Shown here piece by piece: positions 9,521 through 43,886 of a DNA stretch of 64,000 nucleotides. Made by a program: the position numbers and the translations under genes. The notes beneath the pieces were generated by a model. It worked only from the letters and a program-made list of their open reading frames with translations. It searched no databases and was not told the DNA's origin. The stretch spans positions 1,755 to 65,754 of the forward strand of contig DASXYG010000032.1 in NCBI GenBank assembly GCA_036502625.1, given 5' to 3'. This DNA is from Streptosporangiaceae bacterium. GTDB taxonomy: Bacteria > Actinomycetota > Actinomycetes > Streptosporangiales > Streptosporangiaceae. Within the stretch, counting starts at the first letter, position 1; every line of letters begins with the position of its first letter.

Positions 9521-9542
9521 GTCATTTCTCGCCCTGCGCCCC

Positions 9543-9661: not shown

Positions 9662-9706
9662 GCGAGTCTCCCGGGGCGTGCGCGTGGCGCGTGGCGTGCG
9701 TGCAGG

Positions 9707-10020: not shown

Positions 10021-10127
10021 CGCGCTCTTCCTCGTGTCCTGACGCCGAGGTTCTTGGGGGTTGGGGCGTGGCGCTGACGTCCTTTGGCGCTGGTGGTTAC
10101 GGGGGGTGGGGCGGGGTGGCCACTCGG

Positions 10128-10445
10128 CGCCGTGAGGGCGGTGGTCTGAGGGCGGAGCCCCCGCGGCCCAACCCTGAGGACGCCTCGCCAAGGTCGCGGG
10201 CAAAAGCGCGCGCGAAGCGCGGCCTCTTCGTGCGAGGCCGTGTGCCCCTGCCCTGGCACGCCTGGGGGAACGCGCGGGGCGGGGGAGGGCGGCGCCGTGA
10301 GGGCGGTGCTCTGAGGGCGGAGCCTCCGCGGCCCAACCCCGAGAACGCCTCGCCAAGGTCGCGGGCAAGAGCGCGCGCGCAGCGCGGCCTTTTCTCGCGC
10401 GGCTATGTACCCCTCCGGGAGAGCGCGCGAAGCGCGGCCTTTCGT
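10128..10445 (-). repeat. Two to three copies of the same element family in inverted orientation
   Basis: 10128-10250 and 10295-10415 align with each other and with the reverse complement of the forward copies. The cores are AAAAGCGCGCGCGAAGCGCGGCCTCTT (10202-10227), AAGAGCGCGCGCGCAGCGCGGCCTTTTC (10367-10394) and a partial GAGCGCGCGAAGCGCGGCCTTTC (10421-10443). Confidence 0.8.
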
Positions 10446-10559
10446 GCGCGAGGCCGCGAGCGCGGCCCGGCGGCGCGGCCCGGCGGGGCGGGGCGCGGGC
10501 GCGGGGCGAGCGCGGCCCGGCGGCGGGGCGGCCGGGGCGGGGTGCGGGGGCGGGGCGAG

Positions 10560-19804: not shown

Positions 19805-20170
19805 TCAGGTCGCGGCGGCCAGACGGACCAGGTCGTCGAGCCCGGCGCGGCTCTCGGCGCCGCGCGGCACGCCGTGTCCGGAGTCCGGTCCGTCCGCCCA
19901 GTGCCGGAGGGTGTCGAGCGGGCGCAGGCCGGACGCCTTGGCCTCGCGGAGCAGGCCGACCCAGGCCACGCCCGCGTTGTCGCCGGCGTCGCCGGCCGAC
20001 GCGGCGGGGACGAAGCCCGCGGCCTGGTCGTCCTCGGCCGCCCACAGATAGCCGAGCAGCAGGTCGCCGTGGTGTACGGCCACGTAGCGGACCGGGCCGT
20101 CGGTCGTCCACGGCCATTCGTCCGGCGCGGAGACCGTCTCGAAGCGCGGTTCGTCGTCCAGCGGGCCCAT
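19805..20170 (-). CDS. Small acidic protein, putative immunity protein for the upstream ADP-ribosyltransferase toxin
   Basis: 121 aa from ATG at 20170, with a GGAGGA RBS, 32 nt after the toxin stop. Sequence begins MGPLDDEPRFETVSAPDEWPWTTDGPVRYVAVHHGDLLLGYLWAAEDDQ.... I recognise no family for it, so the role is inferred from position only. Confidence 0.5.
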   Translation of the reverse strand: MGPLDDEPRFETVSAPDEWPWTTDGPVRYVAVHHGDLLLGYLWAAEDDQAAGFVPAASAGDAGDNAGVAWVGLLREAKASGLRPLDTLRHWADGPDSGHGVPRGAESRAGLDDLVRLAAAT

Positions 20171-20202
20171 GGTGTCCTCCGATGACGCGCGATCGAGGCG
20201 GG

Positions 20203-21744
20203 TCACTTGATCACGGTGCCGTAGACGTTCCAGATTCCGTCGACCTTCTCGACGTGGTCGACACGGTACTTCGTGCCGCGGTCCAGGGTGATCTCGAGAT
20301 CCTTCTGGCCGGGGTGGAACACGCCGCCGTCGCCGAGGTATCCCGGCGCCACGGCGTGTGTGCCCTTCGGCACGCGCAAGTACATGTTGACCGGGGTGGC
20401 CTTGCGCCTGAAGATGTTCTGCCAGACCGCGGGCCGCTCCTCCGGCTTGGGCGCGGCGCTCACCGACAGGTATCCCGGATCGGTGATCGTCCGCCCGGGG
20501 AGCCGGCTCACCGGGACCTTGAACGCGTCGTCGCCGACCACCCGGGCCGCGATCACGTCGCTGGGCAGGCTGGACCGCTTCATCGCGCCGTCGATGAGCG
20601 GTACGTCCCGCTTCGCCTCGGGGGTGGCCGGACGCTCGCCGCGGAGGTAGTCGTTGATGTCCCGGTAGTTCGGGTCCAGCCGGTAGTTGAACAGGGCCTC
20701 GCGCTGCCTCTTGCCGAGCTTCGAGGTCTGCGGCCCCATCTTCTCGTCGAGCCACTTCTGGAACGCGGCCGGATCCTTGTAGTACGTCGCGCCCTTGCGC
20801 CAGGTCTCCGGCCCCGGCCATTTGTCGGCCCCGGCGGTGTTCTTGGGCGCGTTCTTGACCTTCTCGTCCGGGACCTTGTCCGGCTTGGCCGCCTCCGCGC
20901 CGGCGGCGCCGGCGTCCTCGCCGGCCCGCGCGGCGCGTGCCACCTTCGCCGCGCGCGCCGCCCTGCCGAGGGCCTTGGCGCCCGGGATCGGGACGAACAT
21001 CGAGCCGACGTCGGTGCCGGCGCGCCCGACGGCGGTGGCGTAGTCGCCGTCCTGGGCCGACGTGTACGCCTCCTTGCTGACCGGGGGGCCGCCCACGAGC
21101 GTGGTCAGCGGGTTGGCCAGCGACATCGCGTGGCTCATGCACTCGTAGCCCCGCGGGTCGGCGCCGCAGGCCGCGTAGGTGTGCGGCCACGCCATCAGGC
21201 CGTAGTTCCACTGGTACTTGGCCCAGTTGGTGACGGTGCTGACCGGGTGCCGGGCGATGTGGGCGAGGCCGCCGCCGAAGGCGACCGCGCCGTCGGAGGC
21301 GCCCTCGGCCAGGTTCTTCCCGTAGTGGAGGGCGCATCCGAAGAAGCCGTGGCACTCGTCCGGGTGGCCGACCATGACCTTGAGCGGGCGGCGTGCCTTG
21401 TCGGTGGAGCCGGCGGGGGCGTGGCCGCCGCGGATCGGCGTGGCCCGTGCCACCGGGGCGGCCTGGGGTTTCGGCGCGGTCGTGCAGGTCCTGGCCCGAT
21501 CGCCGGACACGACCCGGCACACGGTGGTGCTCACGCCGTGGCCGATGGTCGTGCCCACCCCGGAGGTGGCCAGCGCGACGACGACGATCACCGCGAGGAT
21601 GCCGAGCGCGAGGAACTCGAAGATCGTTCGTCCGTCGTCGCGCCTGACATGGGCGTCCCTGCGGGACCGGAACACGCGGACCTCCCGGCGGCCAGAGGCG
21701 TGGATGTGGATCAAGAACCAGGAGAGGCTACCGTGATCGGACAT
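20203..21744 (-). CDS. Polymorphic toxin: N-terminal Flp/TadE-like hydrophobic segment, Cys-rich central region, C-terminal C3/Vip2-like mono-ADP-ribosyltransferase domain
   Basis: The C-terminal ~175 aa contain ALFNYRLDPNYRDINDYLRG, VIAARVVG (Arg), DPGYLSVS (S-x-S) and FHPGQKDLEITLDRGTKYRV (catalytic Glu loop). This is the R / S-T-S / [QE]-x-E arrangement of ADPrib_exo_Tox-type enzymes. The N-terminus reads RRDDGRTIFEFLALGILAVIVVVALATSGVGTTIG. Confidence 0.7.
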   Translation of the reverse strand: MSDHGSLSWFLIHIHASGRREVRVFRSRRDAHVRRDDGRTIFEFLALGILAVIVVVALATSGVGTTIGHGVSTTVCRVVSGDRARTCTTAPKPQAAPVARATPIRGGHAPAGSTDKARRPLKVMVGHPDECHGFFGCALHYGKNLAEGASDGAVAFGGGLAHIARHPVSTVTNWAKYQWNYGLMAWPHTYAACGADPRGYECMSHAMSLANPLTTLVGGPPVSKEAYTSAQDGDYATAVGRAGTDVGSMFVPIPGAKALGRAARAAKVARAARAGEDAGAAGAEAAKPDKVPDEKVKNAPKNTAGADKWPGPETWRKGATYYKDPAAFQKWLDEKMGPQTSKLGKRQREALFNYRLDPNYRDINDYLRGERPATPEAKRDVPLIDGAMKRSSLPSDVIAARVVGDDAFKVPVSRLPGRTITDPGYLSVSAAPKPEERPAVWQNIFRRKATPVNMYLRVPKGTHAVAPGYLGDGGVFHPGQKDLEITLDRGTKYRVDHVEKVDGIWNVYGTVIK

Positions 21745-31041: not shown

Positions 31042-31938
31042 TCAGCGGGCCGCGGTCAGCTCGTGGGTGGCGGCGCTGATCCAGGCCTCCTCGTGCTCGT
31101 CCCAGAAGCCGTTGGTGTGCGCGCCGGGGTAGAAGGCGTAGACGTGCGGCACCTTCGCGGCGATCAGCTCGCGGTGCAACTGCTCGTTCTCGGGCACGAA
31201 ATGCGGATCCGCGTCGCCGACGTAGAAGGCGAAGTACGTCGGCCGGTATTTCGCGTACATCCGTTCCACGGAATCGACATAGTTGTGCAAATTCGCCTGG
31301 TGGTTGGCTTTGGCCGAGCCGAGGTCGAGGGGCGCCGAGCCGGACGGGTTCGTCGGCCGGAAGTAGCCGCTCCACGACTGGATCACCGAGTACGTAGCGG
31401 GATTGTGCAGGCCGATGCTGGTGGCGCCGTAGCCGCCGGCGGACAGCCCGATGATCGCGCGCCCGCGCCGGTCGCCGATGGTGCGGTAATGCCGGTCGAC
31501 GTACGCGACCAGCTCGTCGGCGGTGGCGGTCGCCCAGTCGCGGCCGGGCCCCCAGTCGAGCCATTCGGGGTCGGTGTCGCCGGGCCGCGCGCCCTGCGGC
31601 GACACCACGATCGCCGGGCGCCCGGACTCCTCGGCGGCCGCGCCGACGCTGTCGATCCGCTTCGTCTGGTAGCTCGTGGCGTCGCCCGGAAGGCCGTGCA
31701 GGAGGTAGATCACCGGGTAGCGCAGGGCGCCTGAGGAGTAGCCGCGCGGCAGGTAGACGCGGAAATGGTCGGTGCCCTTGAGCGCCGCCGAGGCGAACGC
31801 GCCGTCGCGCACCTGGGCGGGCGACGCCCGGCCCGTGGCCGTGGGCGGGGCGGCCGTGGCGTGTGCGCCGCAGGCCGAGGCGGCGGCGGCGAGCGCGAGC
31901 GCCGCGGCCAACGGGAGGAACTTCCACGTGCCGGTCAC
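31042..31938 (-). CDS. Lipoprotein esterase (putative-esterase / esterase D-like alpha/beta hydrolase)
   Basis: YLPRGY...YPVIYLLHGLPGD and IIGLSAGGYGA (nucleophile elbow). GTG at 31938 gives the lipoprotein signal TGTWKFLPLAAALALAAAASAC. The track ORF extends to a TTG at 31980. Confidence 0.75.
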   Translation of the reverse strand: MTGTWKFLPLAAALALAAAASACGAHATAAPPTATGRASPAQVRDGAFASAALKGTDHFRVYLPRGYSSGALRYPVIYLLHGLPGDATSYQTKRIDSVGAAAEESGRPAIVVSPQGARPGDTDPEWLDWGPGRDWATATADELVAYVDRHYRTIGDRRGRAIIGLSAGGYGATSIGLHNPATYSVIQSWSGYFRPTNPSGSAPLDLGSAKANHQANLHNYVDSVERMYAKYRPTYFAFYVGDADPHFVPENEQLHRELIAAKVPHVYAFYPGAHTNGFWDEHEEAWISAATHELTAAR

Positions 31939-32094: not shown

Positions 32095-33327
32095 TTGATC
32101 GATCGCGGTAATGCGGGCGTGAATACGGCCGGCGGCTGGCGCGATATCCGGCTGCCCGGCCACCTGCTGCGCGAGCTCCACCGCGGATACGCGCCGCTGG
32201 AGTCACCGGCCGTCGGCTACGCGCTCGCCGCGGTGACGCTGGCGTTCGGCTGCACGTGGGCGGCGTTCTTCCTGTGGCGGCGGCGCGTACGGCCGCTGCG
32301 CCGCGCCTGGCCCGTGCACCTGGGCGGCAGCGTCGGCAGCGTCGTGCTGGTGCTGGCGACCGTGCTGGCGTTCGTCAACATCTACGCCGGCTACGCGCCC
32401 ACGCTCGCGTCGGTGCCGTCGATGCTGGGCGGCACGTCCGCGTCGGCGATCGCGGCGCGGTCCGGCGGCCGGCTGCGGACGCTGGTGATCGGCGCGCCCC
32501 GGCTGCGCATCGCGCCCCGCACCGCGTACGTCTACCTGCCGCGCGGCTACGACGCGCCGCGCAACCGCCACCGCAGGTACCCGGTCGTCTACCTGATCCA
32601 CGGCTACCCCGGCGGCGCGTACGACTGGCTGCGCGCCGGCCACCTGGCGACGATCATGGACAACCTGACGAGCGCGCGGCTGATCCCGCCGATGATCGCC
32701 GTCACGCCGGACGCCAACGGGTCGTGGTTCCACGACTCCGAATGCCTCAACCAGGTGCACGGGCCGCAGGTCGCCACGTACCTCACGCACACCGTGGTGG
32801 ACACCGTCCAGCACCGGTACCGCGCGCTGACCGCGCGCCGCGACCGGCTGTTCGGCGGCGCGTCGAGCGGCGGGTTCTGCGCGCTGAACATCGGGCTGCG
32901 CTACCAGGCGGAGTTCGGCGCGCTGCTGGCGTTCGAGCCGTACGGCACGCCGGGCGCGCCGCTGCAGCGGACGCTGCTCGGCGGCAGCGCGGCGCTGTAC
33001 CGGGCGAACTCGCCGAGCTCCTACATCCCGCACCTGCGCCTGCGCCACCGGGTCATCGCCTACCTCGACGCGGGCGGCGCGGCGCGACAGGACGTCGCCC
33101 GCGTGCGGCGGCTCGCGCGGATGCTCGCGGCGCGCGCCGACCCGGGCCGCACCGGCCGCTCCCGCCGCACCGTGGTCGCGTTCCGCGTGGTGCCGCACCA
33201 GACGCACACCTGGCGCGAGGCGGCCAACGGCCTGCCGTACGGGCTGGCGTTCGTCGCGCGCGAACTGCACCTGCGCACCACCGTGCCGCTGATCGAGGCC
33301 CAGCGGCGCGTGCGAACACGTCCGTAA
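32095..33327 (+). CDS. Membrane-anchored esterase-family alpha/beta hydrolase
   Basis: Two N-terminal TM segments, then YLPRGYDAPRNRHRRYPVVYLIHGYPGG and FGGASSGGFCAL. The start codon is uncertain; the longest ORF uses a TTG. Confidence 0.7.
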   Translation: MIDRGNAGVNTAGGWRDIRLPGHLLRELHRGYAPLESPAVGYALAAVTLAFGCTWAAFFLWRRRVRPLRRAWPVHLGGSVGSVVLVLATVLAFVNIYAGYAPTLASVPSMLGGTSASAIAARSGGRLRTLVIGAPRLRIAPRTAYVYLPRGYDAPRNRHRRYPVVYLIHGYPGGAYDWLRAGHLATIMDNLTSARLIPPMIAVTPDANGSWFHDSECLNQVHGPQVATYLTHTVVDTVQHRYRALTARRDRLFGGASSGGFCALNIGLRYQAEFGALLAFEPYGTPGAPLQRTLLGGSAALYRANSPSSYIPHLRLRHRVIAYLDAGGAARQDVARVRRLARMLAARADPGRTGRSRRTVVAFRVVPHQTHTWREAANGLPYGLAFVARELHLRTTVPLIEAQRRVRTRP

Positions 33328-33535
33328 AGTGTCGAATTTCGTGGTCCGCCGGTTTTGTTTGGATGGGCGTACGAGACTTCTTTGAAACCGTCCGGGCCGC
33401 TGGATTGTTGATCAAAGGGCTCGGGTAGTGATGTCTGCGGCAAGCGGCGAACTCGTCGGGGTCGAATAATTCTCATAATTGCCCGCCCGCGAACTGGGCC
33501 GGTAATTCGTATGCCCAAATTCCCTTCCTTACGGC

Positions 33536-34996
33536 GTGCTCGACCGGCAGAGATCACGGAACAGATTGGTGGTAAGCGCGGTGACCGAGTCAGTTCAGGC
33601 CAACACCGGTACGGGCGGCGACGACACGCGGCTCAGCCTCGGCACGTCGGCGGCGCGGAACCTGGCCACGACGACCAAGTCCGTCCCCCAGATGCAGGGC
33701 ATCACCTCGCGCTGGCTGCTGCGCGTGCTGCCCTGGGTGCAGGCGTCCGGCGGCGCGTACCGCGTGAACCGGCGGCTCAGCTACACCGTCGGCGACGGCC
33801 GGGTCACGTTCGTCAACACCGGCTCCGACATCCACGTCATCCCCCGCGAGCTGGGCGAACTGTCGCTGCTCCGCGGCTACGAGGACGAGGAGGTGCTCGG
33901 CGCCCTGGCCGACCGGTTCACCCAGCGGGAGTTCGCGCCCGGCGACCTGATCGTCCAGTCGGGCCAGGCCGCCGACTCCGTCTACCTGATCGCGCACGGC
34001 AAGGTCGACCAGGTCGGCACCGGCGAGTACGGCGACGACACCGTCCAGGAGACGCTCACCGACGGCCAGTTCTTCGGCACGAGCGCGCTCGTCGACGACA
34101 ACGGCACGTGGGACTACACCGTGCGCTCGGTGACGCCGACGACCGTCCTGACGCTCAGCCGCCAGGACTTCCGTACGATCGCCGACCAGGCCGAGTCGCT
34201 GCGCGAGCACCTGGTGCTCGCCGAGGCGAGCGAGGCCGTGGAGAGCAACGACCACGGCGAGGCGTCCATCGAGGTGGCGTCCGGCCACGACGGCGAGCCG
34301 GACCTCCCGGGCACGTTCGTCGACTACGAGGCGGCGCCGCGCGAGTACGAGCTGTCCGTCGCCCAGACCGTGCTGCGCGTCCACTCCCGCGTCGCGGACC
34401 TCTACAACGAGCCGATGGACCAGGTCGAGCAGCAGCTCCGGCTGACGATCGAGGCGCTGCGCGAGCGGCAGGAGCACGAGATCGTCAACAACGGCGACTT
34501 CGGCCTGCTGAACAACGCCGACCTGAAGCAGCGCATCACCACCCGCACCGGCCCGCCCACCCCGGACGACCTCGACGAACTGCTCTCGATCGTGTGGAAG
34601 GACCCGTCCGTCTTCCTGGCCCACCCGCGGACGATCGCCGCGTTCGGCCGCGAGTGCAACAAGCTGGGCGTCTACCCGGCCGCCACGGACATGGGCGGCC
34701 AGATGGTGCCGTCGTGGCGCGGCGTGCCGATCCTGCCGTGCAACAAGATCCCGGTCTCCGACACCCGCACCAGCTCGATCCTGCTGATGCGCACCGGCGA
34801 GGAGCGGCAGGGCGTCATCGGCCTGCACCAGACCGGCATCCCGGACGAGTACCAGCCGGGCCTGTCCGTACGGTTCATGGGCATCAACGAGAAGGCGCTG
34901 ATCTCCTACCTGGTCAGCGCGTACTACTCCTGCGCGATCCTGGTGCCCGACGCGCTCGGCGTGCTGGAGAACGTCGAGATCGGCCGCGAGGGCTGA
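33536..34996 (+). CDS. Family 2B encapsulin shell protein (EshA-like, with cNMP-binding-like domain), copy 1
   Basis: [49 protein letters not shown], a cNMP-like insert ([25 protein letters not shown]...), [66 protein letters not shown] and [15 protein letters not shown]. By analogy with copy 2, the probable start is GTG at 33581. Confidence 0.85.
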
Positions 34997-35000
34997 GCGG

Positions 35001-36398
35001 GTGACCACCACCGAACCCGACCGCGGCACGGCCGAGGACCGGCGCCTCAGCCTCGGCACGTCCGCGGCGCGGAAGCTGGCCACGACCACCAAGTCCGTCC
35101 CCCAGATGCAGGGCATCACGCCGCGCTGGCTGCTGCGCCGCCTGCCGTGGGTGGACGTGCCCGGCGGCGCGTACCGGGTGAACCGGCGGCTGACGTACAC
35201 GGTCGGCGACGGCCGGATCACGTTCCTCAACGACGGCGCGCGGGTCCGCGTCGTACCGCAGGAGCTGCGGGAGCTTGCGCTGCTGCGGGACTTCGCCGAC
35301 GAGGAGGTGCTGACCGCGCTCGCCGGGCGGTTCACGCAGCGGGAGTACCCGCCGGGCGAGGTGATCGTCGAGGCGGGGCGGCCGGCCGAGGAGGTCGTGC
35401 TGATGGCGCACGGCAAGGCCGACCGGCTCACCGCAGGCGCGTACGGCGACCCGGCGGTGCTGGGCAGCGTCACCGACGGCGGCCACGTCGGCGGGCAGGT
35501 GCTGTCCGGCGAGGTCACGCCGTGGGGGTTCACGCTCCGCGCGGCCACGCCGTGCACGGTGCTGGTGCTGCCGCTCGCCGAGTTCCAGCGGATGCCGGGC
35601 GCGGACGGGCTGCGCGCGCACATCCGCGCCGAGCTGGCGAAGCCGCGCGCCTCGCAGACGCGGCACGGCGAGGCGTCCATCGAGCTGGCGTCCGGCCACG
35701 ACGGCGAACCCGACCTGCCGGGCACGTTCGCCGACTACGAGTCCGCGCCGCGCGAGTACGAGCTGTCCGTGGCGCAGACCGTCCTGCGGGTGCACTCCCG
35801 CGTGGCGGACCTGTACAGCGAGCCGATGGACCAGGTCGAGCACCAGCTCCGCTTGACGATCGAGGCGCTGCGCGAACGCGAGGAGTACGAGCTCGTCAAC
35901 AACACCGACTTCGGCCTGCTGCACAACGCCGACCTCGGGCAGCGCATCCCGACCCGTACCGGCCCGCCCACACCCGACGACCTCGACGAACTGCTCTGCC
36001 GCCGCCGCGGCTCCCGGCTGTTCCTGGCGCACCCGAAGGCCATCGCCGCGTTCGGCCGCGCCTGCAGCGGCCGGGGCGTCTACCCGGCGACGACGACGGT
36101 CGACGGCGCCGCGGTGCCGGCCTGGCGCGGCGTGCCGATCTTCCCGTGCGACAAGATCCCGATCACCGATCGCGGCACGACGTCCATCCTGGTCATGCGC
36201 ACCGGCGAGGACGACCAGGGTGTGATCGGCCTGACCAGGACCGGCATCCCGGACGAGCAGCGCCCCGGCCTGTCGGCCCGGTTCAGCGGCGTCACCGACC
36301 AGGCGCTCCTGGAGTACCTGGTGACCGCGTACTACTCGGCGGCGATCCTGGTCCCCGACGCGCTCGGCGTCCTGGAGAACGTCGAGATCACCGCTTGA
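35001..36398 (+). CDS. Family 2B encapsulin shell protein (EshA-like), copy 2
   Basis: The GTG start lies 4 nt after the copy 1 stop. The same motif set is present: [102 protein letters not shown] and [14 protein letters not shown]. Confidence 0.85.
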
Positions 36399-37587
36399 CG
36401 GTCGTCCACAGCGCGCGGAAGCCGCGCACGGTGGGCGAACGGGTCCGGGTCGTGCGGGCGGGGTCGATCGCGTAGTCGGTGACGCGGGACGCCAGCTCGG
36501 TCAGCGCGATCCGGGCCTCCATGCGGGCCAGCGGCGCGCCCAGGCAGAAGTGCCGGCCGTTGCCGAACGGCACGAAGCCGGACCGGTCCCGGTCGAGGTC
36601 GAAGCGGTCCGGGTCGGGGAAGACATCGCCGTCGCGGTTGGCGGCGCCGACGAGGAGGAGGATCCGCGCCCCGGCGGGGAGACGGACGCCGTGCAGGTCC
36701 GTCCCCCCGGTGAGGGTGCGGGCCATGCTCTGCGCGGGCGAGTCGTAGCGGAGGGTCTCCTCGACCCAGTCGCCGACCCGCCCGCCGAGCACCTCGGCGC
36801 GTACGGCGGGGTCGCGTCCGGCGGCGTGCCACGCGTTGCCGATCAGGTGGGTGGTGGTCTCGTTGCCGGCGCCGATCAGCAGCGACAGCACGGCGGTGAT
36901 CTCCTCGTCGCCGAGCCGGTCGTCGGCGTCCGCGGCCTCGATCAGCGCGGACGTCAGGTCGTCCGGGCGGGTGCGGGACGAGCGCCGGGCGACGACGTGC
37001 TCGTGCAGGTACGTCAGCAGCCGGATGCCCGCCTGCGCCCCGTCCGGCGTGATGTCGTGCACGGCGTCCGACCGCGTGGTCACCCGGTTGATCAGCCCGC
37101 TGAGCTCGGCGCGGTCGCCCTCGGGCACCCCCGCCAGCTCGCTGATCACGTCCGCGGGCACCCGCGCCGCGAAGTCCGCCACCAGGTCGAACGTGCCCGC
37201 CTGGAGCGCGGCGTCGGCGTGCCGCGCGGCGATGCGCCGGATGCGCGGCGCCAGCTCGTTGACCCGCCGCTGCGTGAACGCCCGCGCCACCAGCCCGCGC
37301 GTACGCGTGTGCTCCGGCGGATCCATCGCGACGAACGACATATGCCGAGCCGCCTTGGGCCCCCACGACATCGGATCAAGAAACGGCCCGTTCCCACTGG
37401 AGAACAGCTCACTGTCCCGAAACGCGCCGAGCACGTCCGAGTGCCGCGAGAACGCCCAGAAGTCCTGCTCCTCGTTCCGATAAACCGGCACCTCGTCCCG
37501 CATCCGCGCGTAAGTCGGATACGGGTCTTCGTGCACCGCATGGTCATACAGGCTGAACCCAACACCCACCATGCCCCCGAGCATCAC
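36388..37587 (-). CDS. Cytochrome P450, co-directional with and 36 nt downstream of desD
   Basis: [14 protein letters not shown] (heme Cys loop), AGNETT (I-helix) and ETLRY (ExxR). Its 3' end overlaps encapsulin copy 2 by 11 nt in convergent orientation. Confidence 0.9.
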
Positions 37588-37623: not shown

Positions 37624-39423
37624 TCAGCCCGCGGCGAGCGGGTTCGGGAGGGTGCCGGCGAGGTTGAGGGCGCTTGACGGGTCGTCCAGGTTCACCATTT
37701 CCTGGTTGTTTCTCAATTGGAGGCGGTTGAGGCAGGAGAGGGGGAAGCTCGGGGTGAAGAGGTTGTGTCTCTCGAAGCGGGTGGAGAAATTGGGGTGGGA
37801 CTCTTGGTAGGCGTGGACGCAGGTCGCTACTGTGCGCCAGAAATCGGGTTCGGGGATTGTTTCTGAGGTGTCGAGAATGGCGCTGAGGAAGCGGAAGACG
37901 CAGTCGAAGACGTCCGTGAGGATGGACAGGGGCTTCAGGTGGTCGGGGACGTGGGCGCGGATGCGTTCCACCTCGGGGGGCAGCGGGGTGTCGGGGCCGA
38001 GGACGGCTATCTCCTCGCCGATGTCCTTGAAGACGGCGCGTACGGGGGCGCCGGACTCGTCCAAAACGAGGATGACGTTCTCGCCGTGCGGCATGAAGAC
38101 CAGGTCGTACGCGTAGAAGCAGTGCAATAGCGGGGTGAGGTACGCGTCCAGGTAGCGGCGCAGCCACACATCCGGCGGCAGGCCGGAGCCGGCGATCAGC
38201 TCGGCGGCCAGCGAGCGGCCGTCCGCGTCGACGTGCAGGAGCGCGGCCATCGTCGTCAGCCGCTCGCCGTCGCGCAGCCGCGGCACCGGGCTCTCCCGCC
38301 ACAGCGCGGCCAGCATCTTCCGGTACGGCGAGCCCTTCGCGGTCGCCGCCTCGTACTGCTCGGCGTGGTAGCCGACGGCCGCGCGCTCCCGCAGCACCGC
38401 CAGTCCCGTACGGGCCAGCACCGGGTCGGCGGCGACCAGTCCGGCCAGCCAGTCGTTGATGGCGGGTGTGGCGCGCATGTACTCCGCCGACAGGCCGCGC
38501 ATGAACCCCATGTTCAGCACCGACAGCGCCGTCTTGACGTAGTGCCGGTGCGGGGCGGCGGTGTTGAAGAACGTGCGGATCGACTGCTGCGCCTGGTACG
38601 TGTCGTCGCCCGGCCCCAGGTGGACGAGGTTGCGCCGGGCGATCTCCCCGGCGAACGTCACCGCCAGCTTGTTCCGCCACTGCCACGGGTGCACCGGGAT
38701 GAGGTGGACGTCGTCCAGCCCCAGGCCCACGTCGCCGAGTACGGCGGCGAACCGGCGCAGCGTGGCCGGGTCGAGCTCGCCCTCGACCAGCGCCGCGTAG
38801 TCGAGGTCGGCCGACGACGTGAACGTGGACCGGTCGCGCCGCGTGGCCAGCCAGACCAGCCGTACGGGCGCACCGGCCTCCGGCGCGTACGCGCGGTACT
38901 CCTCGGCGTCGAACCCGAGCCGCCCGCTGTTCGCCACGAAGCACGGGTGGCCCTCGGTCATGGCCGCCTCGATCGTCTGGAACGGGGCGCGCGCCAGCTC
39001 GGCGGCCGACCGGCCCGTACGGGACAGCTTGTACGCGGACGACGCGAGCGTGCTGGCGATCTCCTCCAGGTAGACGGGCAGCACGTCGCCGGACAGGCCG
39101 AGCGCGCCGCGCAGGTCGAGGATCAGGTCGAGCGCGTCCAGGCCGGGGGAGGCCGCCCCGTCCACCACGCGCACGACGGACCCGGCGTCGACCGCCCAGT
39201 GCTCCAGCGCCATCAGCCGCGCGGCGAAGCGGTACTCCACGGACGGGTCGTCGCAGGTGACGGCGTACGTACCGGGGTCGAGCGGACGCGGTACGACCAG
39301 CCGCTCGTGCGCGAACTCCGCGAGCGCCTTGCGCACGAGCAGCCGGTTGGCCCGCGCCCACAGCTCCGGCGTCAGGTGGCCGACCGCGTCGGCAACGGGC
39401 GTCACGACATCCGCCGCGGTCAT
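37624..39423 (-). CDS. desD: IucA/IucC-family NIS siderophore synthetase (desferrioxamine synthetase)
   Basis: GHPCFVANSGRLGF, IPVHPWQW, QQSIRTFFN, KTALSVLNMGFMRGL and HGENVILVL. ATG at 39423 is in frame with track ORF 37624-39897. Confidence 0.9.
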   Translation of the reverse strand: MTAADVVTPVADAVGHLTPELWARANRLLVRKALAEFAHERLVVPRPLDPGTYAVTCDDPSVEYRFAARLMALEHWAVDAGSVVRVVDGAASPGLDALDLILDLRGALGLSGDVLPVYLEEIASTLASSAYKLSRTGRSAAELARAPFQTIEAAMTEGHPCFVANSGRLGFDAEEYRAYAPEAGAPVRLVWLATRRDRSTFTSSADLDYAALVEGELDPATLRRFAAVLGDVGLGLDDVHLIPVHPWQWRNKLAVTFAGEIARRNLVHLGPGDDTYQAQQSIRTFFNTAAPHRHYVKTALSVLNMGFMRGLSAEYMRATPAINDWLAGLVAADPVLARTGLAVLRERAAVGYHAEQYEAATAKGSPYRKMLAALWRESPVPRLRDGERLTTMAALLHVDADGRSLAAELIAGSGLPPDVWLRRYLDAYLTPLLHCFYAYDLVFMPHGENVILVLDESGAPVRAVFKDIGEEIAVLGPDTPLPPEVERIRAHVPDHLKPLSILTDVFDCVFRFLSAILDTSETIPEPDFWRTVATCVHAYQESHPNFSTRFERHNLFTPSFPLSCLNRLQLRNNQEMVNLDDPSSALNLAGTLPNPLAAG

Positions 39424-39986
39424 CGGACGGCCTCCTTCGCACGGGCCGCCGCGTACGCCGCGCGGGTGCAGACGCTCAGGTACGCGGACTTGCCCGGCAG
39501 CTCGACGGTGTCCTCGATCGTGAAGCCCATCTCGGCGTTGCGCCGGTGGACGGCCGTGTTGCGCACGTCCGGCTCCGCCACGACCCGCCGCACGCCCGGG
39601 TCGGCGAAGATCATGTCGAGCACGGTGGCCAGCACCGCGGACGTGAACCCGTGCACCGGCCGGGCCGACGGCGCGACCAGGAAGTGCATGCCCGCGTCGC
39701 CCGGCTCGGCGGCGTAGACGTGGCCCAGCTCGGCCGCGGGGTCGTACCGCTCGGCCAGGAACGCCGGGCGGCCGTCGTGCAGGCCCAGGTACGCGGCGTG
39801 CCCCGGCGACGCCGCGACCCTCGCGAACTCGGCCTCGACCTCGGCGCGGCCCGCCCCGCCCATCATCCAGAACACCGACTTCGGGTGGGTGAGCCACGCG
39901 TGCAGCAGCGGCGCGTCGCCGGCCGGGTCGACCGTGCGCAGCGCGAACGTGCCGAGCGCGGACGTACGGGTGAAGACCGTCGCCAT
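39420..39986 (-). CDS. desC: IucB-type N-hydroxycadaverine acyltransferase (GNAT-like)
   Basis: FALRTVDPAGDAPLLHAWLTHPKSVFWMM, GMHFLVAP and RRVVAEPDVRNTAVHRRNAEMGF. The start overlaps the desB stop. Confidence 0.85.
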   Translation of the reverse strand: MATVFTRTSALGTFALRTVDPAGDAPLLHAWLTHPKSVFWMMGGAGRAEVEAEFARVAASPGHAAYLGLHDGRPAFLAERYDPAAELGHVYAAEPGDAGMHFLVAPSARPVHGFTSAVLATVLDMIFADPGVRRVVAEPDVRNTAVHRRNAEMGFTIEDTVELPGKSAYLSVCTRAAYAAARAKEAVR

Positions 39987-41287
39987 CACGCCACCTCGTC
40001 CCGTACGCGCGCGTCCGCTTCCGGTACGCCGAACTCCTGGAACGCGATCGACCGTTCGACCGGGTAGTACTCCCGGCCGAGCAGCCCGCGGATGACGCAC
40101 GCGTTGCGGTACGCCGCCATGCCGAGGTCCGGCGCGGCGAAGCCGTGCGTGTGCAGCTCCGCGTTCTGCACGTAGATCCCGCGGCCGGTCACGTCCACGC
40201 TGTAGTCGCGGCGTACGGCGAACCGGCCCGCGTCGTCCCAGACGATCCGGTCGCGGACCGGCGCGAGGAAGTCCGGCACGCGGTAGCGGTAGCCGGTGGC
40301 CAGCACCAGGCCGTCGGTGGCGAACCGGTGCTCGCGGTCCTGCTCGTACTGGCGCAGCCGCAGGTCGTACCCGGTGCCGTCCTGCCGCGCGGCGACGACC
40401 TCGGTGTTGGTCATCAGCCGCACCTGCGGCGCCTCGGTGCGGCCGCGCTCGTACAGCAGGTCGAAGATCGCGTTGATCAGGTCGCCGTTGATGCCCTTGT
40501 ACAGGCCCTTCTGCGCGGCGCCGAGCCGGTCGCGGGTGGCCGGCGGCAGCCCGTGGAAGTAGTCGATGTACTCCGGCGACGTCATCTCCAGCGTGAGCTT
40601 GGTGTACTCCAGCGGGAAGTACCGCGGCGAGCGGGTGATCCAGGCCAGCTCGTAGCCGCCGTCCGGCTGGCCCGAGAGCAGGTCGTACACGATCTCCGCG
40701 GCGCTCTGGCCGCTGCCCACCACCGTGATCCGCCGCCGTTTCCGCAGCTCGTCGCGGTGGTCGAGGTAGCGGGACGCGTGCACGGCGCCGTCGAGGCCGC
40801 GGCAGGCCTCCGGCACGTACGGCGGCGTCCCGGTGCCGAGCACCAGCTTCCGCGCCCGGTACGCCACCTCGCGCCCGTCGTGGCCGGCGCGCACGACGTA
40901 GACGCCGGCGGACGCGTCGTACTCGACGGCCGTGACGTCGTGGCGGAACCGTACGGACGGCAGCCGCCCGACGGCCCACCGGCAGTAGTCGTCGAACTCG
41001 GCGCGCAGCGGGTAGAAGCTCTCGCGGATGTAGAACGGGTACAGTCGGCCGCGTTCCTTCAGGTAGTTCAGGAACGAGAACGGCGACGTCGGGTCGGCGA
41101 GCGTGACCAGGTCGGACAGGAACGGCGTCTGCAAAGTGCTGCCGTCGAGCAGCATGCCGGGGTGCCAGGAGAAGTCCGGGCCGCGTTCCAGGAACAGGCC
41201 GTCGAGCCCCTCGATCGGGTCGGTGAGGCAGGCGAGGCCGAGGTTGAACGGCCCGAGGCCGATGGCGATGAAGTCGTACGTGGGCAT
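39986..41287 (-). CDS. desB: Cadaverine/lysine N-hydroxylase (IucD family flavin monooxygenase)
   Basis: [41 protein letters not shown] and [16 protein letters not shown] at 41287 follows GAGAGGAGG. Confidence 0.9.
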
Positions 41288-41298
41288 GGCGCCTCCTC

Positions 41299-42759
41299 TC
41301 AGCTCGCGCGCGCCTCGGCGTACGCGCTGGTGTACGCGGACGCGTGGGCGTCGAGCAGGTCCAGGACCTCGGCGATGTCGCGCACCGTGGTCTCCGGGTT
41401 GAGCAGCGTGAACTTCAGGTAGTGGCGGCCGTCGACGACCGTGCCGGCGACCATGGCCGCGCCGGAGGCGAACAGCGCCTCGCGGGCGTGCAGGTTCGCG
41501 CCGTCGATCAGCTCGGGGTCGCCGGGGTCGGCGTCCGGCGGCGTGCACCGGAACACGAGCGTGCTCAGCGCCGGCCGGACGACCAGCTCGAACCGCTTGT
41601 CGTCGGCGAGCAGCCCGGCGGCGTCCTCGGCCAGGTCGACGACCGCGTCGAACAGCTCGCCGACGCCGGAGCCGCCCATGATCCGCAGCGTCATCCACAG
41701 TTTCAGCGCGTCGAAGCGGCGCGTGGTCTGCAACGACTTGTCGACCTGGTTCGGCACGCGCGCCGAGGCGTGCTCCGGGTTGAGGTAGTCGGCGTGGTAC
41801 GTGACGTGCCGCAGCGCCGCGCGGTCCCGTACGAGCACGGCGCTTGAGCTGACCGGCTGGAAGAACGACTTGTGGAAGTCGACCGTCACGGAGTCGGCGC
41901 GGTCGATGCCGTCGAGCAGGTGGCGGCGGCGCGAGACCAGCAGCCCGCATCCGTACGCGGCGTCCGCGTGCAGCCAGGTGCCGGTGCGCGCGCAGATGTC
42001 GGCGATCTCCGGCAGCGGGTCGATGCTGCCGAAGTCGGTGGTCCCCGCGGTGGCGACCACCGCCATGGGGACGTCGCCCTCGGCGGCGCAGCGCTCGAGC
42101 GCGTGGGCCAGCGCGACGGCGCGCATCCGGCGGTCGGCGTCGTCGGGCACGCGGACCACGGCGTCCGCGGACAGGCCGAGCAGCCGCGCCGCCTTGACCA
42201 CGCTGAAGTGCGCGCACGGCGAGGCGAAGACGCGCAGGTCGGCGAGTGCGGCGCCGGCGGCGGTCGCCTCGTCGCGGGCGATCAGCAGCGCCTGGAGGTT
42301 GGACTGGGTGCCGCCGCTGGTGAACACGCCGTCGGCGGCCGGGCCGAGGCCGAGGCGCCCGGCCGTCCAGTCGATGAGCCGCCGTTCGATCAGCGTGCCG
42401 CCGACGCTCTGGTCCCAGGTGTCGACGGAGGAGTTGACCGCCGACAGCACGGCCTCGCCGACGACGGCCGGGATGACGACCGGGCAGTTGAGGTGGGCCA
42501 GGTAGCGCGGGTGGTGGAAGTAGACGGCGTCGTCGAGGTAGACGCGGTCGAGCTCGTCGAGCACGGCCGCGGTGTCGCCGAGCGGCCGGTCGAGGTCGAC
42601 GCGGTCGACGACCGAGGCGAGCCGGTCGGCGCTGACGCCGGTGGCGGGCCGGTCGGTGCGCGCGAACCGGTCGGCCACGCGGTCGACCCCGGCGGCGACG
42701 AGCCGCCGGTACTGGTCCACGGTCCGGTCGTTGAGCAGGTGCGACCTGCTGTCGGGCAC
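41299..42759 (-). CDS. desA: PLP-dependent lysine decarboxylase (group II decarboxylase)
   Basis: [29 protein letters not shown] and DFHKSFFQP (PLP Lys). Confidence 0.9.
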
Positions 42760-42811
42760 GTGTCTGTCCTCCTGAGCGGGTGGGATGCGGGTGCGGGTAC
42801 GGCGGGACGGG

Positions 42812-43837
42812 TCAGCGGACCTTGCGCGCGGAGCGCAGCGCCTTGGCCAGCGATTCGATGAACGGCGCGCAGCCGGCGTAGGAGTACCGCGGCTCGCTCA
42901 GCCACGGGGTGATCTGGCCGGCCTTGACGGCGGGCAGCCCCTGCCAGGTGGGCTTGCCGGTGAGCTGCTTCGGCTGGAGCGCCTGCGTACGGCTGTCCAG
43001 CAGGATCAGGTCGGCACCGTACTTGTCGGCGTTCTCCCAGCTCAGGGCCTCGAAGAAGCCCTGGGAGTCGGCCTTGGGCACGACGAAGCGCACGCCGAGC
43101 CGCCGGTAGTAGGTGAGGTCGGGGTAGACCTTCGGGTCCGAGACGTACAGCGCGTCCGGGCTGGCCGAGGCCGCCATGACGGTGATGTCGGGGTTGGCCT
43201 TCGCGGCGGCGCGCAGCTCCTTGGTCGCCTTCTGGAAGCGGGTCTTGGCCGCGGCGACCGGCCCGGACTTCACGTCCGCGCCGAGCGAGGCGGCCAGCGC
43301 CTCGTACCGCTCGATCGGGTGGAGCAGCGGCACCCCCGCGACGGTCACGCCCACACTGGGCGCCACCTTCGCGATCTCGGCCGCCGACTTGTCCGGCACG
43401 TACCACAGCACGTTCTTCTGGAACATGTGCGTGACCAGCAGGTCCGGCCGCAGCTCGGCGTACTTCTCGACGTTGAACTCGCCGAACGTGCTGCCCAGCG
43501 ACGCCACCTTCCGGATATCGACGTCGCCGGCGAGCGGGTCGCGCCGGCCGTCGCCGCCCTTCGTCGGGCCGAACACGCCGACGATTTTGCCGCCGACGCC
43601 GAAGTCGGTGAGCGCGGCGGCGGTGCCGATGTAGGCGACCAGCCGTTTCGGCGCGGCGCCCCGGGCCACCCGCTTGCCGCGGTCGTCGGTGAACGCCCAG
43701 CTCCCGCCCCCGGAGGGTCGGCCGCTCGTACCGCCACCGCCCCCGCAGGCGGCGGCGAGCGCGCCGACCCCCGCGAGCCCGGCCGCGCCGAGCAGCCCCC
43801 GTCGCGAGATCCCTTCCACACCGGCCATTCCAGCCAC
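42812..43837 (-). CDS. desE: Ferric-siderophore ABC substrate-binding lipoprotein
   Basis: Tat-like RRGLLGAAGLAGVGALAAAC lipobox, with a periplasmic binding protein type 8 layout. ATG at 43828 is the more likely start, because the GAAGG spacing fits it better. Confidence 0.8.
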   Translation of the reverse strand: MAGMAGVEGISRRGLLGAAGLAGVGALAAACGGGGGTSGRPSGGGSWAFTDDRGKRVARGAAPKRLVAYIGTAAALTDFGVGGKIVGVFGPTKGGDGRRDPLAGDVDIRKVASLGSTFGEFNVEKYAELRPDLLVTHMFQKNVLWYVPDKSAAEIAKVAPSVGVTVAGVPLLHPIERYEALAASLGADVKSGPVAAAKTRFQKATKELRAAAKANPDITVMAASASPDALYVSDPKVYPDLTYYRRLGVRFVVPKADSQGFFEALSWENADKYGADLILLDSRTQALQPKQLTGKPTWQGLPAVKAGQITPWLSEPRYSYAGCAPFIESLAKALRSARKVR

Positions 43838-43867: not shown

Positions 43868-43886
43868 TTAGGTTAGCCTAACCATA
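43868..43886. promoter_or_regulatory. DtxR/IdeR/DmdR-type iron box
   Basis: TTAGGTTAGCCTAACCATA matches 17 of 19 positions of the consensus palindrome TTAGGTTAGCCTAACCTAA. It lies about 30-40 nt upstream of desE. Confidence 0.8.

What the first reader, a model, noticed from the sequence alone, without database searches (positions are those of the whole stretch)
33536..36398. Tandem family 2B (EshA-like) encapsulin shell genes with no recognisable cargo gene nearby
Seen in sequence:
- Two co-directional ORFs lie 4 nt apart. They share LSLGTSAAR[NK][24 protein letters not shown], an inserted cyclic-nucleotide-binding-like domain of roughly 120 aa, [53 protein letters not shown] and [14 protein letters not shown].
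- No terpene cyclase, polyprenyl transferase or other recognised cargo type lies within more than 10 kb on either side. Upstream is a membrane-anchored esterase. Downstream is a convergent P450 overlapping copy 2 by 11 nt, then the desferrioxamine operon.
- In the best-conserved block (34253-34491 vs 35664-35902) I counted roughly 24 mismatches in about 239 nt by eye. Almost all are third-codon-position changes. This suggests both copies are under purifying selection rather than one being a decaying duplicate.
- The phosphate-binding-cassette regions differ between copies ([22 protein letters not shown] vs [22 protein letters not shown]). Neither keeps the full canonical G-E-x-A-L...R-[ST]-A pattern, so ligand binding may be lost or asymmetric.

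Established knowledge: this architecture is that of Streptomyces EshA and the family 2B encapsulins, which are HK97-fold nanocompartment shells with a cNMP-binding-type insert. They are usually encoded beside cargo such as 2-methylisoborneol/geosmin-type terpene cyclases or polyprenyl transferases that carry disordered targeting extensions. Operons with two shell genes are known.

Inference: this is an orphan two-component nanocompartment whose cargo and trigger are unknown.
Basis: partly seen in the sequence, partly recalled or inferred. Interest (0 to 1): 0.8.

Follow-up and report, generated by a model that had tools for sequence, protein, structure and literature searches.

The report
Two-gene encapsulin shell without neighbouring cargo
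These are two intact genes for a known kind of bacterial protein nanocompartment shell (a family 2B Enc1/Enc2 pair) that have lost the terpenoid enzyme gene normally found next to them, so their cargo is probably encoded elsewhere in the genome; this is a tidy but ordinary case.

Summary
Two co-directional ORFs, 4 nt apart (Enc1 33581-34996; Enc2 35001-36398), are full-length family 2B encapsulin shell proteins: NCBIfam NF041163 scores 782 and 733 bits against a cutoff of 400, and both are 65-70% identical to the solved S. lydicus and S. griseus shells. They form a true Enc1/Enc2 pair. Copy 1 carries the published Enc1 motif (IVWK) and copy 2 the Enc2 motif (RRRG), an order that held in 78 of 78 related two-shell loci.

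No terpene cyclase, polyprenyl transferase, xylulose kinase, cysteine desulfurase or cargo-loading-peptide protein was found in the 64-kb window. Of 82 related two-shell loci with adequate flanks, 81 have such a neighbour; this locus is the only exception. A related metagenome contig keeps the same cargo-less gene order, and both genes there are intact (ortholog dN/dS 0.23 and 0.20).

The best reading is a derivative of the actinobacterial Enc1-(GeoA)-Enc2-PT terpenoid type that lacks the PT gene. It would form a mixed T=1 shell loaded with cargo encoded elsewhere. Cargo-less two-component operons ("Other") and possible loading from distant loci are already in the literature. The divergent cNMP pocket is a family-wide trait. 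Interest is low to moderate.

The parts
33581..34996 (+). Enc1: family 2B encapsulin shell protein, 471 aa. The ORF is open from GTG 33536, but the likely start is GTG 33581.
   Evidence: NF041163 782 bits (cutoff 400) and PF19307 plus PF00027. About 70% identical to 9BIX, 9BJE and 9BHU. Mean identity is 0.71 to Enc1-class proteins against 0.64 to Enc2-class proteins. Start inferred from L085.
35001..36398 (+). Enc2: second family 2B shell protein, 465 aa. It is the more divergent of the two.
   Evidence: NF041163 733 bits. Best PDB match is S. lydicus Enc2, 9BIX. Best non-self identity is 69%. The orthologue in L085 is 92.7% identical, with dN/dS 0.20.
34589..34600 (+). Diagnostic motif 1 of Enc1 (IVWK), at the A-domain protomer interface.
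   Evidence: Sl-Enc1 has TVWK and Sl-Enc2 has RRRK (PMC12407261). xVWK was found in the first gene of 78 of 78 two-shell loci. Coordinates.
36000..36011 (+). Diagnostic motif 1 of Enc2 (RRRG).
   Evidence: An RRR-type motif was found in the second gene of 78 of 78 two-shell loci.
33926..34189 (+). cNMP-binding-fold insert (CBD) of Enc1. It includes W177 (codon within 34103-34117), which replaces the cAMP-contacting Arg.
   Evidence: PF00027 65 bits, residues 131-218 of the 486-aa ORF. W177 aligns with SgEnc W176.
35340..35594 (+). CBD insert of Enc2. It includes W175 (within 35517-35531).
   Evidence: PF00027 44 bits. W175 is invariant in 61 aligned family 2B shells. The AF2 model has pLDDT 80-90 across this domain, and Foldseek matches CAP/PKA cNMP-binding domains.
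33632..33658 (+). N-arm motif LSLGTSAAR of Enc1. Its core is identical to the cargo-loading peptide consensus GPTGLGTSAAR.
   Evidence: PMC8346489.
35046..35072 (+). N-arm motif LSLGTSAAR of Enc2.
33328..33580 (+). 253-nt intergenic leader between the esterase gene and Enc1, relatively AT-rich. This is the presumed promoter region of the enc1-enc2 operon.
   Evidence: Sequence. The simple sigma-70 scan found nothing here, and no Rfam family matched on this strand. The promoter role is inferred only.
36388..36398 (.). 11-nt overlap of the convergent Enc2 and P450 stop regions, at the position where related loci carry the polyprenyl transferase gene.
   Evidence: The PT gene lies directly after Enc2 in related loci. 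L085 keeps a relic of the Enc2 3' end next to its P450 stop, so the overlap is ancestral in this lineage.

Best explanation

Shown:
- Both are intact HK97-fold shell proteins with an externally displayed cNMP-fold domain.
- They carry the published Enc1 and Enc2 diagnostic motifs in the canonical gene order.
- Both keep the four hydrophobic residues that line the luminal three-fold cargo-docking pocket.
- Both are under purifying selection.

Inferred from the S. lydicus and M. xanthus systems:
- They are co-translated from one operon and co-assemble stochastically into a mixed T=1 shell of 60 subunits, about 27-28 nm across.
- Only one of the two can probably assemble alone.
- The cNMP-fold domains sit over the large two-fold pores and respond to an unknown ligand that is not cAMP.

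Inferred from comparative genomics: the locus derives from the actinobacterial terpenoid-type operon, Enc1-(GeoA-like cyclase)-Enc2-polyprenyl transferase. This Streptosporangiaceae lineage lacks the transferase gene, and a convergent P450 and the desferrioxamine operon abut Enc2 instead.

Most likely consequence: the shell is loaded in trans by an enzyme encoded elsewhere in the genome that carries GPxGLGT(SAAR)-type loading peptides. The most probable candidate is a geosmin- or 2-methylisoborneol-type terpene cyclase.
For: Identity:
- NF041163 782 and 733 bits, plus PF19307 and PF00027.
- 65-70% identity over the full length to 9BIX, 9BJE and 9BHU.
- Foldseek top hits are 9bhu, 9bje, 9bix and 6x8m.

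Enc1/Enc2 pairing:
- IVWK in copy 1 and RRRG in copy 2, matching TVWK and RRRK in S. lydicus.
- The same order holds in 78 of 78 two-shell loci.

Cargo pocket: SgEnc L264, L285, F430 and Y441 are conserved as Enc1 L265, L286, F432 and Y443, and as Enc2 L262, L283, F428 and Y439.

Selection and conservation:
- L085 has the same esterase-Enc1-Enc2...P450-desD order and both ORFs are intact.
- dN/dS is 0.23 for Enc1 and 0.20 for Enc2.

Terpenoid ancestry:
- The closest homologues (about 74% identity) sit in Enc1-Enc2-PT operons.
- Of 82 two-shell loci with at least 3 kb of flank, 35 have PT, 27 PT+TC, 15 TC, 4 another CLP-bearing ORF and 1 has none. That one is this window.

Trans-loading:
- Compact Enc1-Enc2-PT loci have no CLP-bearing gene within 10 kb, apart from one distal CLP-like ORF in L066 (the 'PT+CLPonly' locus), and their roughly 346-aa PT has no extension.
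- The literature reports that nearly all unlinked GeoAs retain CLPs, and that 88.3% of the genomes encoding them have a family 2B encapsulin elsewhere.

No local candidate:
- The CLP scan hit only the shells themselves.
- There are no GAP-rich terminal domains in the window's proteins.
- A P450 homologue lies near the shells in only 1 of 162 related loci.
- The only iron box lies upstream of the desE-like gene.
Against: - No cargo was identified. The rest of the genome could not be searched, because the source is a MAG and only one 64-80 kb contig was accessible.
- Loss of the PT gene is inferred by parsimony from more distant relatives (74% identity or less). No close Streptosporangiaceae genome with a PT at this position was found.
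- PT itself has never been shown to be cargo.
- Trans-loading of family 2B shells is proposed in the literature but has not been demonstrated.
- Enc2 is unusually divergent, equally distant from the Enc1 and Enc2 classes outside the motif.
- Assembly, mixing of the two subunits and ligand binding were not tested here.
Confidence: 0.6

Rival explanations
1. The shell works without cargo, or independently of it. After losing the terpenoid genes, the pair is kept for a function of the shell or its cNMP-fold domains themselves, for example the physiological roles once ascribed to EshA, or ligand or metal sequestration.
For: - No cargo-class or CLP-bearing gene lies in 64 kb.
- Both genes are nevertheless under purifying selection.
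- The shell N-arms themselves carry the CLP-like core SLGTSAAR.
- Other cargo-less two-component operons exist: the 'Other' class in PMC12407261 and the candidate L156.
Against: - The luminal cargo-docking residues are fully conserved in both copies.
- Every characterised family 2 shell has a cargo.
- GeoA homologues not linked to encapsulin genes, which retain CLPs, are common in actinobacteria.
- The EshA 'regulator' interpretation has been revised to a cargo-loaded shell (PMC11550324).
Confidence: 0.2
2. A neighbouring gene product is a non-canonical cargo or functional partner. Candidates are the convergent P450, the esterases or the desferrioxamine enzymes, which would link the compartment to siderophore or iron metabolism.
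For: - The shells are physically adjacent to these genes, with an 11-nt overlap with the P450.
- The same neighbourhood is found in L085 and L167.
- The P450 lies only 36-87 nt downstream of desD on the same strand, so des transcription could read antisense into enc2.
Against: - None of these proteins has a loading peptide or a disordered Gly/Ala/Pro-rich extension.
- The junctions are plastic. A 3-gene cassette separates Enc2 from the P450 in L085, and separates desD from the P450 in L086.
- A P450 homologue occurs near family 2B shells in only 1 of 162 related loci.
- The single iron box serves the des operon, not the shell genes.
- The shell genes and the P450/des genes are on opposite strands.
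- L167 is the same sequence as the window, and L085 is so close that shared synteny carries little weight.
Confidence: 0.07
3. The genes are a decaying remnant of a disrupted terpenoid cluster, with one or both copies non-functional.
For: The PT gene that follows Enc2 in nearly all related actinobacterial loci is missing. Enc2 is more divergent than Enc1.
Against: - Both ORFs are full length in the window and in L085.
- Orthologue dN/dS is 0.23 and 0.20.
- All residues invariant across the family are retained.
- Curated HMM scores are far above the cutoff.
Confidence: 0.03

Closest known systems
Streptomyces lydicus two-component family 2B encapsulin, Sl-Enc1/Sl-Enc2 (PDB 9BJE/9BIX; PMC12407261)
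   Same: - Adjacent Enc1-Enc2 genes.
- About 65-70% identity over the full length.
- The same diagnostic motif 1 (xVWK in Enc1, RRRx in Enc2).
- A differing luminal loop (motif 2).
- A cNMP-fold domain inserted in the E-loop.
   Different: - The S. lydicus operon is the xylulose-kinase type, and its cargo is also undetermined. The window has no xylulose kinase gene.
- The window's closest relatives belong to the PT and TC/PT types.
- Assembly behaviour was not tested here.
Actinobacterial Enc1-Enc2-PT and Enc1-GeoA-Enc2-PT operons, for example Phytohabitans houttuyneae (L001/L002), Streptomonospora nanhaiensis (L003) and Actinomadura and Spirillospora loci
   Same: - The closest shell sequences (about 70-74% identity).
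- The same gene order and motif pattern.
- Both shell genes tightly linked.
   Different: - The roughly 346-aa polyprenyl transferase gene that starts at or within about 100 nt of the Enc2 stop is absent here.
- So is the CLP-bearing GeoA-like cyclase found between Enc1 and Enc2 in split loci.
- A convergent P450 overlaps the Enc2 stop instead.
Streptomyces griseus EshA / Sg Enc with 2-methylisoborneol synthase cargo (PDB 9BHU; PMC11550324)
   Same: - Family 2B fold.
- Trp in place of the cAMP-binding Arg.
- Conserved three-fold docking residues (L264, L285, F430, Y441).
- N-arm SLGT(A/S)AAR motif.
   Different: - The S. griseus system has one shell gene.
- Its cargo, 2-MIBS with an N-terminal loading domain, is encoded next to the shell gene.
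Myxococcus xanthus MxEnc1/MxEnc2-GeoA system (bioRxiv 10.64898/2026.07.21.739788)
   Same: - A two-component family 2B shell.
- The preprint explicitly proposes that unlinked GeoAs with CLPs may be loaded into shells encoded at distant loci.
   Different: - The cargo gene is adjacent in M. xanthus.
- It belongs to a different phylum.
- The shells are about 66% identical to those in the window.

Membership tests
Family 2B encapsulin shell protein | HK97-type (SrpI-like) shell domain | tested here: met
   PF19307 scores 463 and 440 bits. NF041163 matches end to end at 782 and 733 bits against a cutoff of 400. Both proteins are 65-70% identical to the solved shells 9BIX, 9BJE and 9BHU. The Foldseek top hits are family 2B and 2A shells, but the AF2 model is poor outside the cNMP-fold domain (pLDDT 57), so the fold evidence rests on sequence homology.
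Family 2B encapsulin shell protein | cNMP-binding-fold domain inserted in the E-loop, which distinguishes 2B from 2A | tested here: met
   PF00027 scores 65 and 44 bits and lies between the N-arm and the SrpI-like domain. The AF2 model has pLDDT 80-90 for residues 80-210 and Foldseek matches CAP and PKA domains.
Family 2B encapsulin shell protein | Trp replacing the cyclic-phosphate-binding Arg in the cNMP-fold pocket (widespread family hallmark; no cAMP binding) | tested here: met
   Enc1 W177 and Enc2 W175 align with SgEnc W176. This Trp is invariant in 61 aligned sequences. Ligand binding itself cannot be tested with these tools.
Family 2B encapsulin shell protein | Self-assembly into an icosahedral T=1 shell | not testable with these tools
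   This needs expression and electron microscopy.
Family 2B encapsulin system (shell plus cargo) | A dedicated cargo enzyme with a loading domain or peptide encoded in the same operon or neighbourhood | tested here: not met
   No TC, PT, XK or CD gene was found among 52 Pfam-scanned predicted genes across the window. No GPxGLGT or LGTSAAR motif occurs outside the shells. No protein has a Gly/Ala/Pro-rich terminal domain. tblastn with PT and TC queries gave E >= 0.17.
Family 2B encapsulin system (shell plus cargo) | Conserved luminal three-fold docking pocket for the loading peptide | tested here: met
   The equivalents of SgEnc L264, L285, F430 and Y441 are conserved in both copies.
Two-component (Enc1/Enc2) family 2B system | Two family 2B shell genes within 10 kb, adjacent and in conserved order | tested here: met
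   The gap is 4 nt and both genes are on the same strand.
Two-component (Enc1/Enc2) family 2B system | Diagnostic motif 1: xVWK in the upstream protein, RRR[KG] in the downstream protein | tested here: met
   Copy 1 has IVWK and copy 2 has RRRG. The rule holds in 78 of 78 two-shell loci. The motif is defined in PMC12407261.
Two-component (Enc1/Enc2) family 2B system | Diagnostic motif 2: a distinct luminal A-domain loop in each protein | tested here: inconclusive
   The loops differ ([12 protein letters not shown] against [12 protein letters not shown]). Neither matches the S. lydicus sequences closely, and no class consensus was derived.
Two-component (Enc1/Enc2) family 2B system | Co-assembly into mixed shells | not testable with these tools
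   Inferred only, from S. lydicus and M. xanthus.
PT or TC/PT terpenoid-type family 2B operon | A polyprenyl transferase gene directly downstream of Enc2, and/or a CLP-bearing terpene cyclase beside or between the shell genes | tested here: not met
   Both are absent from the window and from L085. One or both are present in 81 of 82 comparable loci. The shell sequences are nevertheless closest to this type.
Desferrioxamine (des) gene cluster | Shared strand or operon and iron-box (IdeR/DmdR) control | tested here: not met
   The shell genes are on the opposite strand. The only iron box, at 43868-43886, lies upstream of the desE-like gene. The junctions with the des genes vary between relatives.

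The most novel reading that the evidence does not exclude
The pair has been repurposed in this Streptosporangiaceae lineage into a nanocompartment that no longer depends on terpenoid enzymes. It would either enclose a non-canonical cargo that lacks the known GPxGLGT loading peptide, or act without cargo, with its own N-arm SLGTSAAR motif (a near copy of the cargo-loading peptide) occupying or gating the docking site.
Probability: 0.12. Interest if true: 0.55.

Novelty: new member of a known kind. Interest (0 to 1): 0.25.

Why it matters
If the trans-loading reading is right, this locus is a clean natural case for testing a published but unproven idea: that family 2B shells can be loaded by cargo encoded at a distant locus. 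It has shell genes under selection, an intact docking pocket and no local cargo. It also shows that the polyprenyl transferase usually found after Enc2 can be dispensed with.

Beyond that, it is an ordinary, correctly recognisable member of a well-described family. NCBI's own HMM would name both genes.

Tried and rejected
- Exact-sequence look-ups of Enc2 (V- and M-start forms) and of the 382-aa P450 found nothing on record. The shell proteins have no relative closer than 74-75% in the 5.8-billion-protein set.
- The genome-contig scan did not contain the source genome; the best match was 74%. The metagenome-contig scan gave no close relatives either, with a best match of 66%. It served only to widen the context survey.
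- The AF2 model of Enc2, built from a 61-sequence alignment, was poor (pLDDT 57, pTM 0.41). The Foldseek hits are therefore only supportive.
- I tried to walk beyond the window through an edge gene. This reached only a 6-kb Logan contig and added a GntR-family gene.
- The simple sigma-70 and terminator scan gave nothing usable around the shell genes.
- Cargo candidates considered and rejected: the transmembrane esterase (a membrane protein with no loading motif), the P450 (normal length, no extension, not associated with shells elsewhere) and the Des enzymes (normal lengths, opposite strand).
- L119 and L146 first looked like orphan loci. On Pfam scanning they turned out to have a terpene synthase and a PT respectively.
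- I ran no further search on looking for a GeoA from the same MAG. The top-120 output could not be tied to this genome.
Full report
**Observation.** The window carries two co-directional ORFs on the + strand, 33536-34996 and 35001-36398, separated by 4 nt.
- Both proteins hit Pfam SrpI-like (463 and 440 bits) with an embedded cNMP_binding domain (65 and 44 bits).
- Both match NCBIfam NF041163, 'family 2B encapsulin nanocompartment shell protein', end to end at 782 and 733 bits against a curated cutoff of 400.
- The copies are 65-67% identical overall, 77% in the HK97 part and 45% in the cNMP-type domain.
- The likely Enc1 start is GTG 33581 (MTESVQ..., 471 aa). In the relative L085 the frame opens only four codons upstream of that point. 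That start leaves a 17-residue N-extension, matching the roughly 18 residues reported for the family (PMC8346489).

**Fold and family.** Both proteins align over their full length, at about 65-70% identity, with three solved family 2B shells: S. lydicus Enc2 (9BIX), S. lydicus Enc1 (9BJE) and S. griseus EshA/SgEnc (9BHU). Family 2A shells follow in the hit list.
- An AF2 model of Enc2 was poor (pLDDT 57), apart from the cNMP-fold domain at 80-90.
- Its best Foldseek hits were still 9bhu, 9bje, 9bix and 6x8m, followed by CAP and PKA cNMP domains.
- I rest the fold assignment on sequence homology to solved structures.

**A true Enc1/Enc2 pair.** PMC12407261 defines two diagnostic differences between the first and second shell proteins of two-component operons. 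Motif 1 is TVWK in Sl-Enc1 and RRRK in Sl-Enc2.
- The window has IVWK in copy 1 (34589-34600) and RRRG in copy 2 (36000-36011).
- In 78 of 78 two-shell loci that I collected, the upstream gene had xVWK and the downstream gene had RRR.
- Enc1 is clearly closer to other Enc1s than to Enc2s (mean identity 0.71 against 0.64). Enc2 is more divergent, at 0.64 to both classes.
- The duplication is therefore ancient, as the literature says, and not a recent tandem copy.

**Selection.** That is a majority, not 'almost all'.
- Paralogue dN/dS is 0.72, and dS is unreliable at 98% GC3.
- A better test became possible with the metagenome contig L085, which is 94% identical in nucleotides across esterase-Enc1-Enc2 and holds intact orthologues of both genes.
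- Enc1 is 96.2% identical at the amino-acid level with dN/dS 0.23. Enc2 is 92.7% identical with dN/dS 0.20.
- Both copies are under purifying selection.

**Neighbourhood.** I predicted genes from GC3 periodicity and scanned 52 of them against Pfam. Two edge genes cut by the window ends were not scanned, and 9170-10560 is a non-coding repeat tract.
- Upstream lie an esterase (31042-31812, -) and a transmembrane esterase (32095-33327, +).
- Downstream, a convergent P450 (36388-37587, -) overlaps Enc2 by 11 nt.
- Then come desD, desC, desB and desA plus a binding-protein gene (37624-43669, -).
- No terpene cyclase, polyprenyl transferase, xylulose kinase or cysteine desulfurase is present in the window.
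- tblastn with a PT and a GeoA-like TC from related loci found nothing better than E = 0.17.
- A scan for the cargo-loading peptide (GPxGLGT / LGTSAAR) hit, in real reading frames, only the N-termini of the two shell proteins.
- No predicted protein has a Gly/Ala/Pro-rich terminal domain.

**Source.**
- The P450 is 100% identical to NCBI HEY3683165.1, 'MAG TPA: Streptosporangiaceae bacterium'.
- The window is 100% identical to JGI metagenome 3300036773, contig Ga0376651_0000097, 80.7 kb.

**Comparative context.** The closest shell homologues (about 74% identity) come from Phytohabitans, Streptomonospora, Actinomadura, Saccharothrix and similar genera. Their loci are Enc1-Enc2-PT, or Enc1-[gene of about 750 aa]-Enc2-PT.
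- The gene between the shell genes is a GeoA-like cyclase. It carries GPTGLGTSAAR at mid-protein and at the C-terminus, as published.
- Of 82 two-shell loci with at least 3 kb of flank on both sides, 35 had PT, 27 PT+TC, 15 TC, 4 another CLP-bearing ORF and 1 had none. That one is this window.
- L085 shares the window's arrangement without PT. L156 is a further orphan candidate, flanked by a permease gene and moaA.
- By parsimony, this lineage lost the PT gene. No remnant is left.
- L085 keeps a relic of the Enc2 3' end beside its P450 stop. The overlapping Enc2/P450 junction is therefore ancestral in this small clade, and the 1.7-kb three-gene cassette in L085 is a later insertion.

**Are the neighbours involved?** The evidence says probably not.
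- A P450 homologue lies within 10 kb of the shells in only 1 of 162 related loci.
- The junctions are plastic. The cassette sits between Enc2 and the P450 in L085, but between desD and the P450 in L086.
- The only IdeR/DmdR-type iron box in the window (43868-43886; 0 expected by chance) lies upstream of the desE-like gene.
- The P450, esterases and Des enzymes are of normal length and have no loading motifs.
- One caveat: the P450 follows desD closely on the same strand and no terminator was detected. Transcription of the des genes could therefore run antisense into enc2. This is speculation.

**cNMP-fold domain.**
- Both copies carry Trp (Enc1 W177, Enc2 W175) at the position of SgEnc W176, which replaces the cAMP-contacting Arg.
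- This Trp is invariant in 61 aligned family 2B shells.
- SgEnc, and by report the M. xanthus shell, do not bind cAMP.
- This is a property of the family, not of this locus.

**Mechanism.**
- Shown: two intact, selected Enc1 and Enc2 genes, with the four hydrophobic residues of the luminal three-fold docking pocket (SgEnc L264, L285, F430, Y441) conserved in both.
- Inferred from S. lydicus and M. xanthus: the two are co-expressed from one operon and co-assemble stochastically into a mixed T=1 shell of about 27-28 nm. Only one component can assemble alone. The cNMP-fold domains sit over large two-fold pores, and the N-arms can close those pores.
- Inferred: the cargo is encoded elsewhere. In support, compact Enc1-Enc2-PT loci have no CLP-bearing gene within 10 kb apart from one distal CLP-like ORF in L066, and their roughly 346-aa PT has no extension.
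- The 2026 preprint also reports that nearly all geoA genes unlinked to encapsulins retain CLPs. It finds that 88.3% of the genomes carrying such geoA genes encode a family 2B encapsulin elsewhere, and it explicitly raises loading from distant loci.

**Rivals.**
- Cargo-free function, about 0.2.
- A neighbouring gene product as non-canonical cargo, about 0.07.
- A decaying remnant, about 0.03, contradicted by the intact ORFs and by dN/dS.

**Novelty.** Two-component family 2B operons make up 21% of family 2B systems, and the same paper records a class with no obvious cargo ('Other'). The genes would be named correctly by NCBI's HMM.
- What is specific here is a derivative without PT that is conserved in at least two related populations. 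It was the sole cargo-less locus among 82 comparable relatives.
- I rate it a new member of a known kind, with interest 0.25.

**Seen in passing.**
- Rfam RF02735 (Sernc350, 'Saccharopolyspora antisense sRNA') matches the minus strand opposite the 5' 500 nt of both shell genes, at 267 and 118 bits. The model is in effect the reverse complement of a family 2B coding sequence.
- The shell N-arm motif SLGTSAAR nearly equals the CLP core GLGTSAAR. None of the encapsulin papers I read mentions this.
- A 1.4-kb non-coding tract dense in repeats lies at 9170-10560.

Noticed in passing
window 33621-34125 (-) and 35040-35539 (-): Rfam RF02735 Sernc350 ('Saccharopolyspora sRNA 350', type antisense) matches full length at 267 and 118 bits, opposite the 5' 500 nt (N-arm plus cNMP-fold domain) of both shell genes. 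The alignment has many non-canonical pairs. The Rfam model appears to be the reverse complement of a conserved family 2B encapsulin coding sequence. An antisense transcript may exist, but the score reflects conservation of the coding sequence.
   Followed up: partly
window 33632-33658 and 35046-35072; also 162 shells from loci L001-L085: The disordered N-arm of the shell proteins carries LSLGTSAAR, whose core is almost identical to the cargo-loading peptide consensus GPTGLGTSAAR of GeoA-type cargo. The S, L, A, A and R positions are invariant in 61 aligned shells. The R probably corresponds to the Arg24 that closes the two-fold pore in M. xanthus. The encapsulin papers I read do not comment on the resemblance. 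It could mean mimicry or competition between the N-arm and the CLP.
   Followed up: partly
L085 2567-4259; L086 1232-3042 (absent from the window): A three-gene cassette (DUF6082, DUF6879 and an 89-aa protein) sits between Enc2 and the P450 in one related contig, and between desD and the P450 in another. The two cassette copies are only 71% identical, whereas the flanking genes are 88-93% identical. In L085 the insertion is flanked by a relic duplication of the Enc2 3' end. The cassette looks like a small mobile or independently acquired module.
   Followed up: partly
window 9170-10560: A tract of about 1.4 kb with no codon periodicity, packed with repeats. These are GCCTCGC x62, a 146-nt tandem repeat x2.4, a 141-nt pair and a 125-nt pair that are inverted relative to each other, and G-rich 13- and 49-nt repeats. 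The tract lies between a TPP-enzyme gene and an MFS transporter gene.
   Followed up: no
window 43868-43886: A near-perfect IdeR/DmdR-type iron box (TTAGGTTAGCCTAACCATA; 0 expected by chance) lies about 40 nt upstream of the desE-like binding-protein gene, at the head of the desEABCD operon. The P450 at 36388-37587 follows desD by only 36-87 nt on the same strand and may be the operon's last gene.
   Followed up: partly
window 20203-21744 (-) and 19805-20206 (-): A 513-aa protein has an N-terminal transmembrane segment and a C-terminal ADP-ribosyltransferase exoenzyme domain (PF03496). It is followed by an overlapping 133-aa ORF with no Pfam hit. This may be a toxin and immunity pair.
   Followed up: no
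L156 3371-6166: Another Enc1-Enc2 pair in a metagenome contig has no PT, TC or CLP gene in its short flanks of 2.5-3.3 kb. It is flanked by a cytosine/purine permease gene and by a convergent moaA that overlaps the Enc2 stop. It is a possible second example of the cargo-less class.
   Followed up: partly
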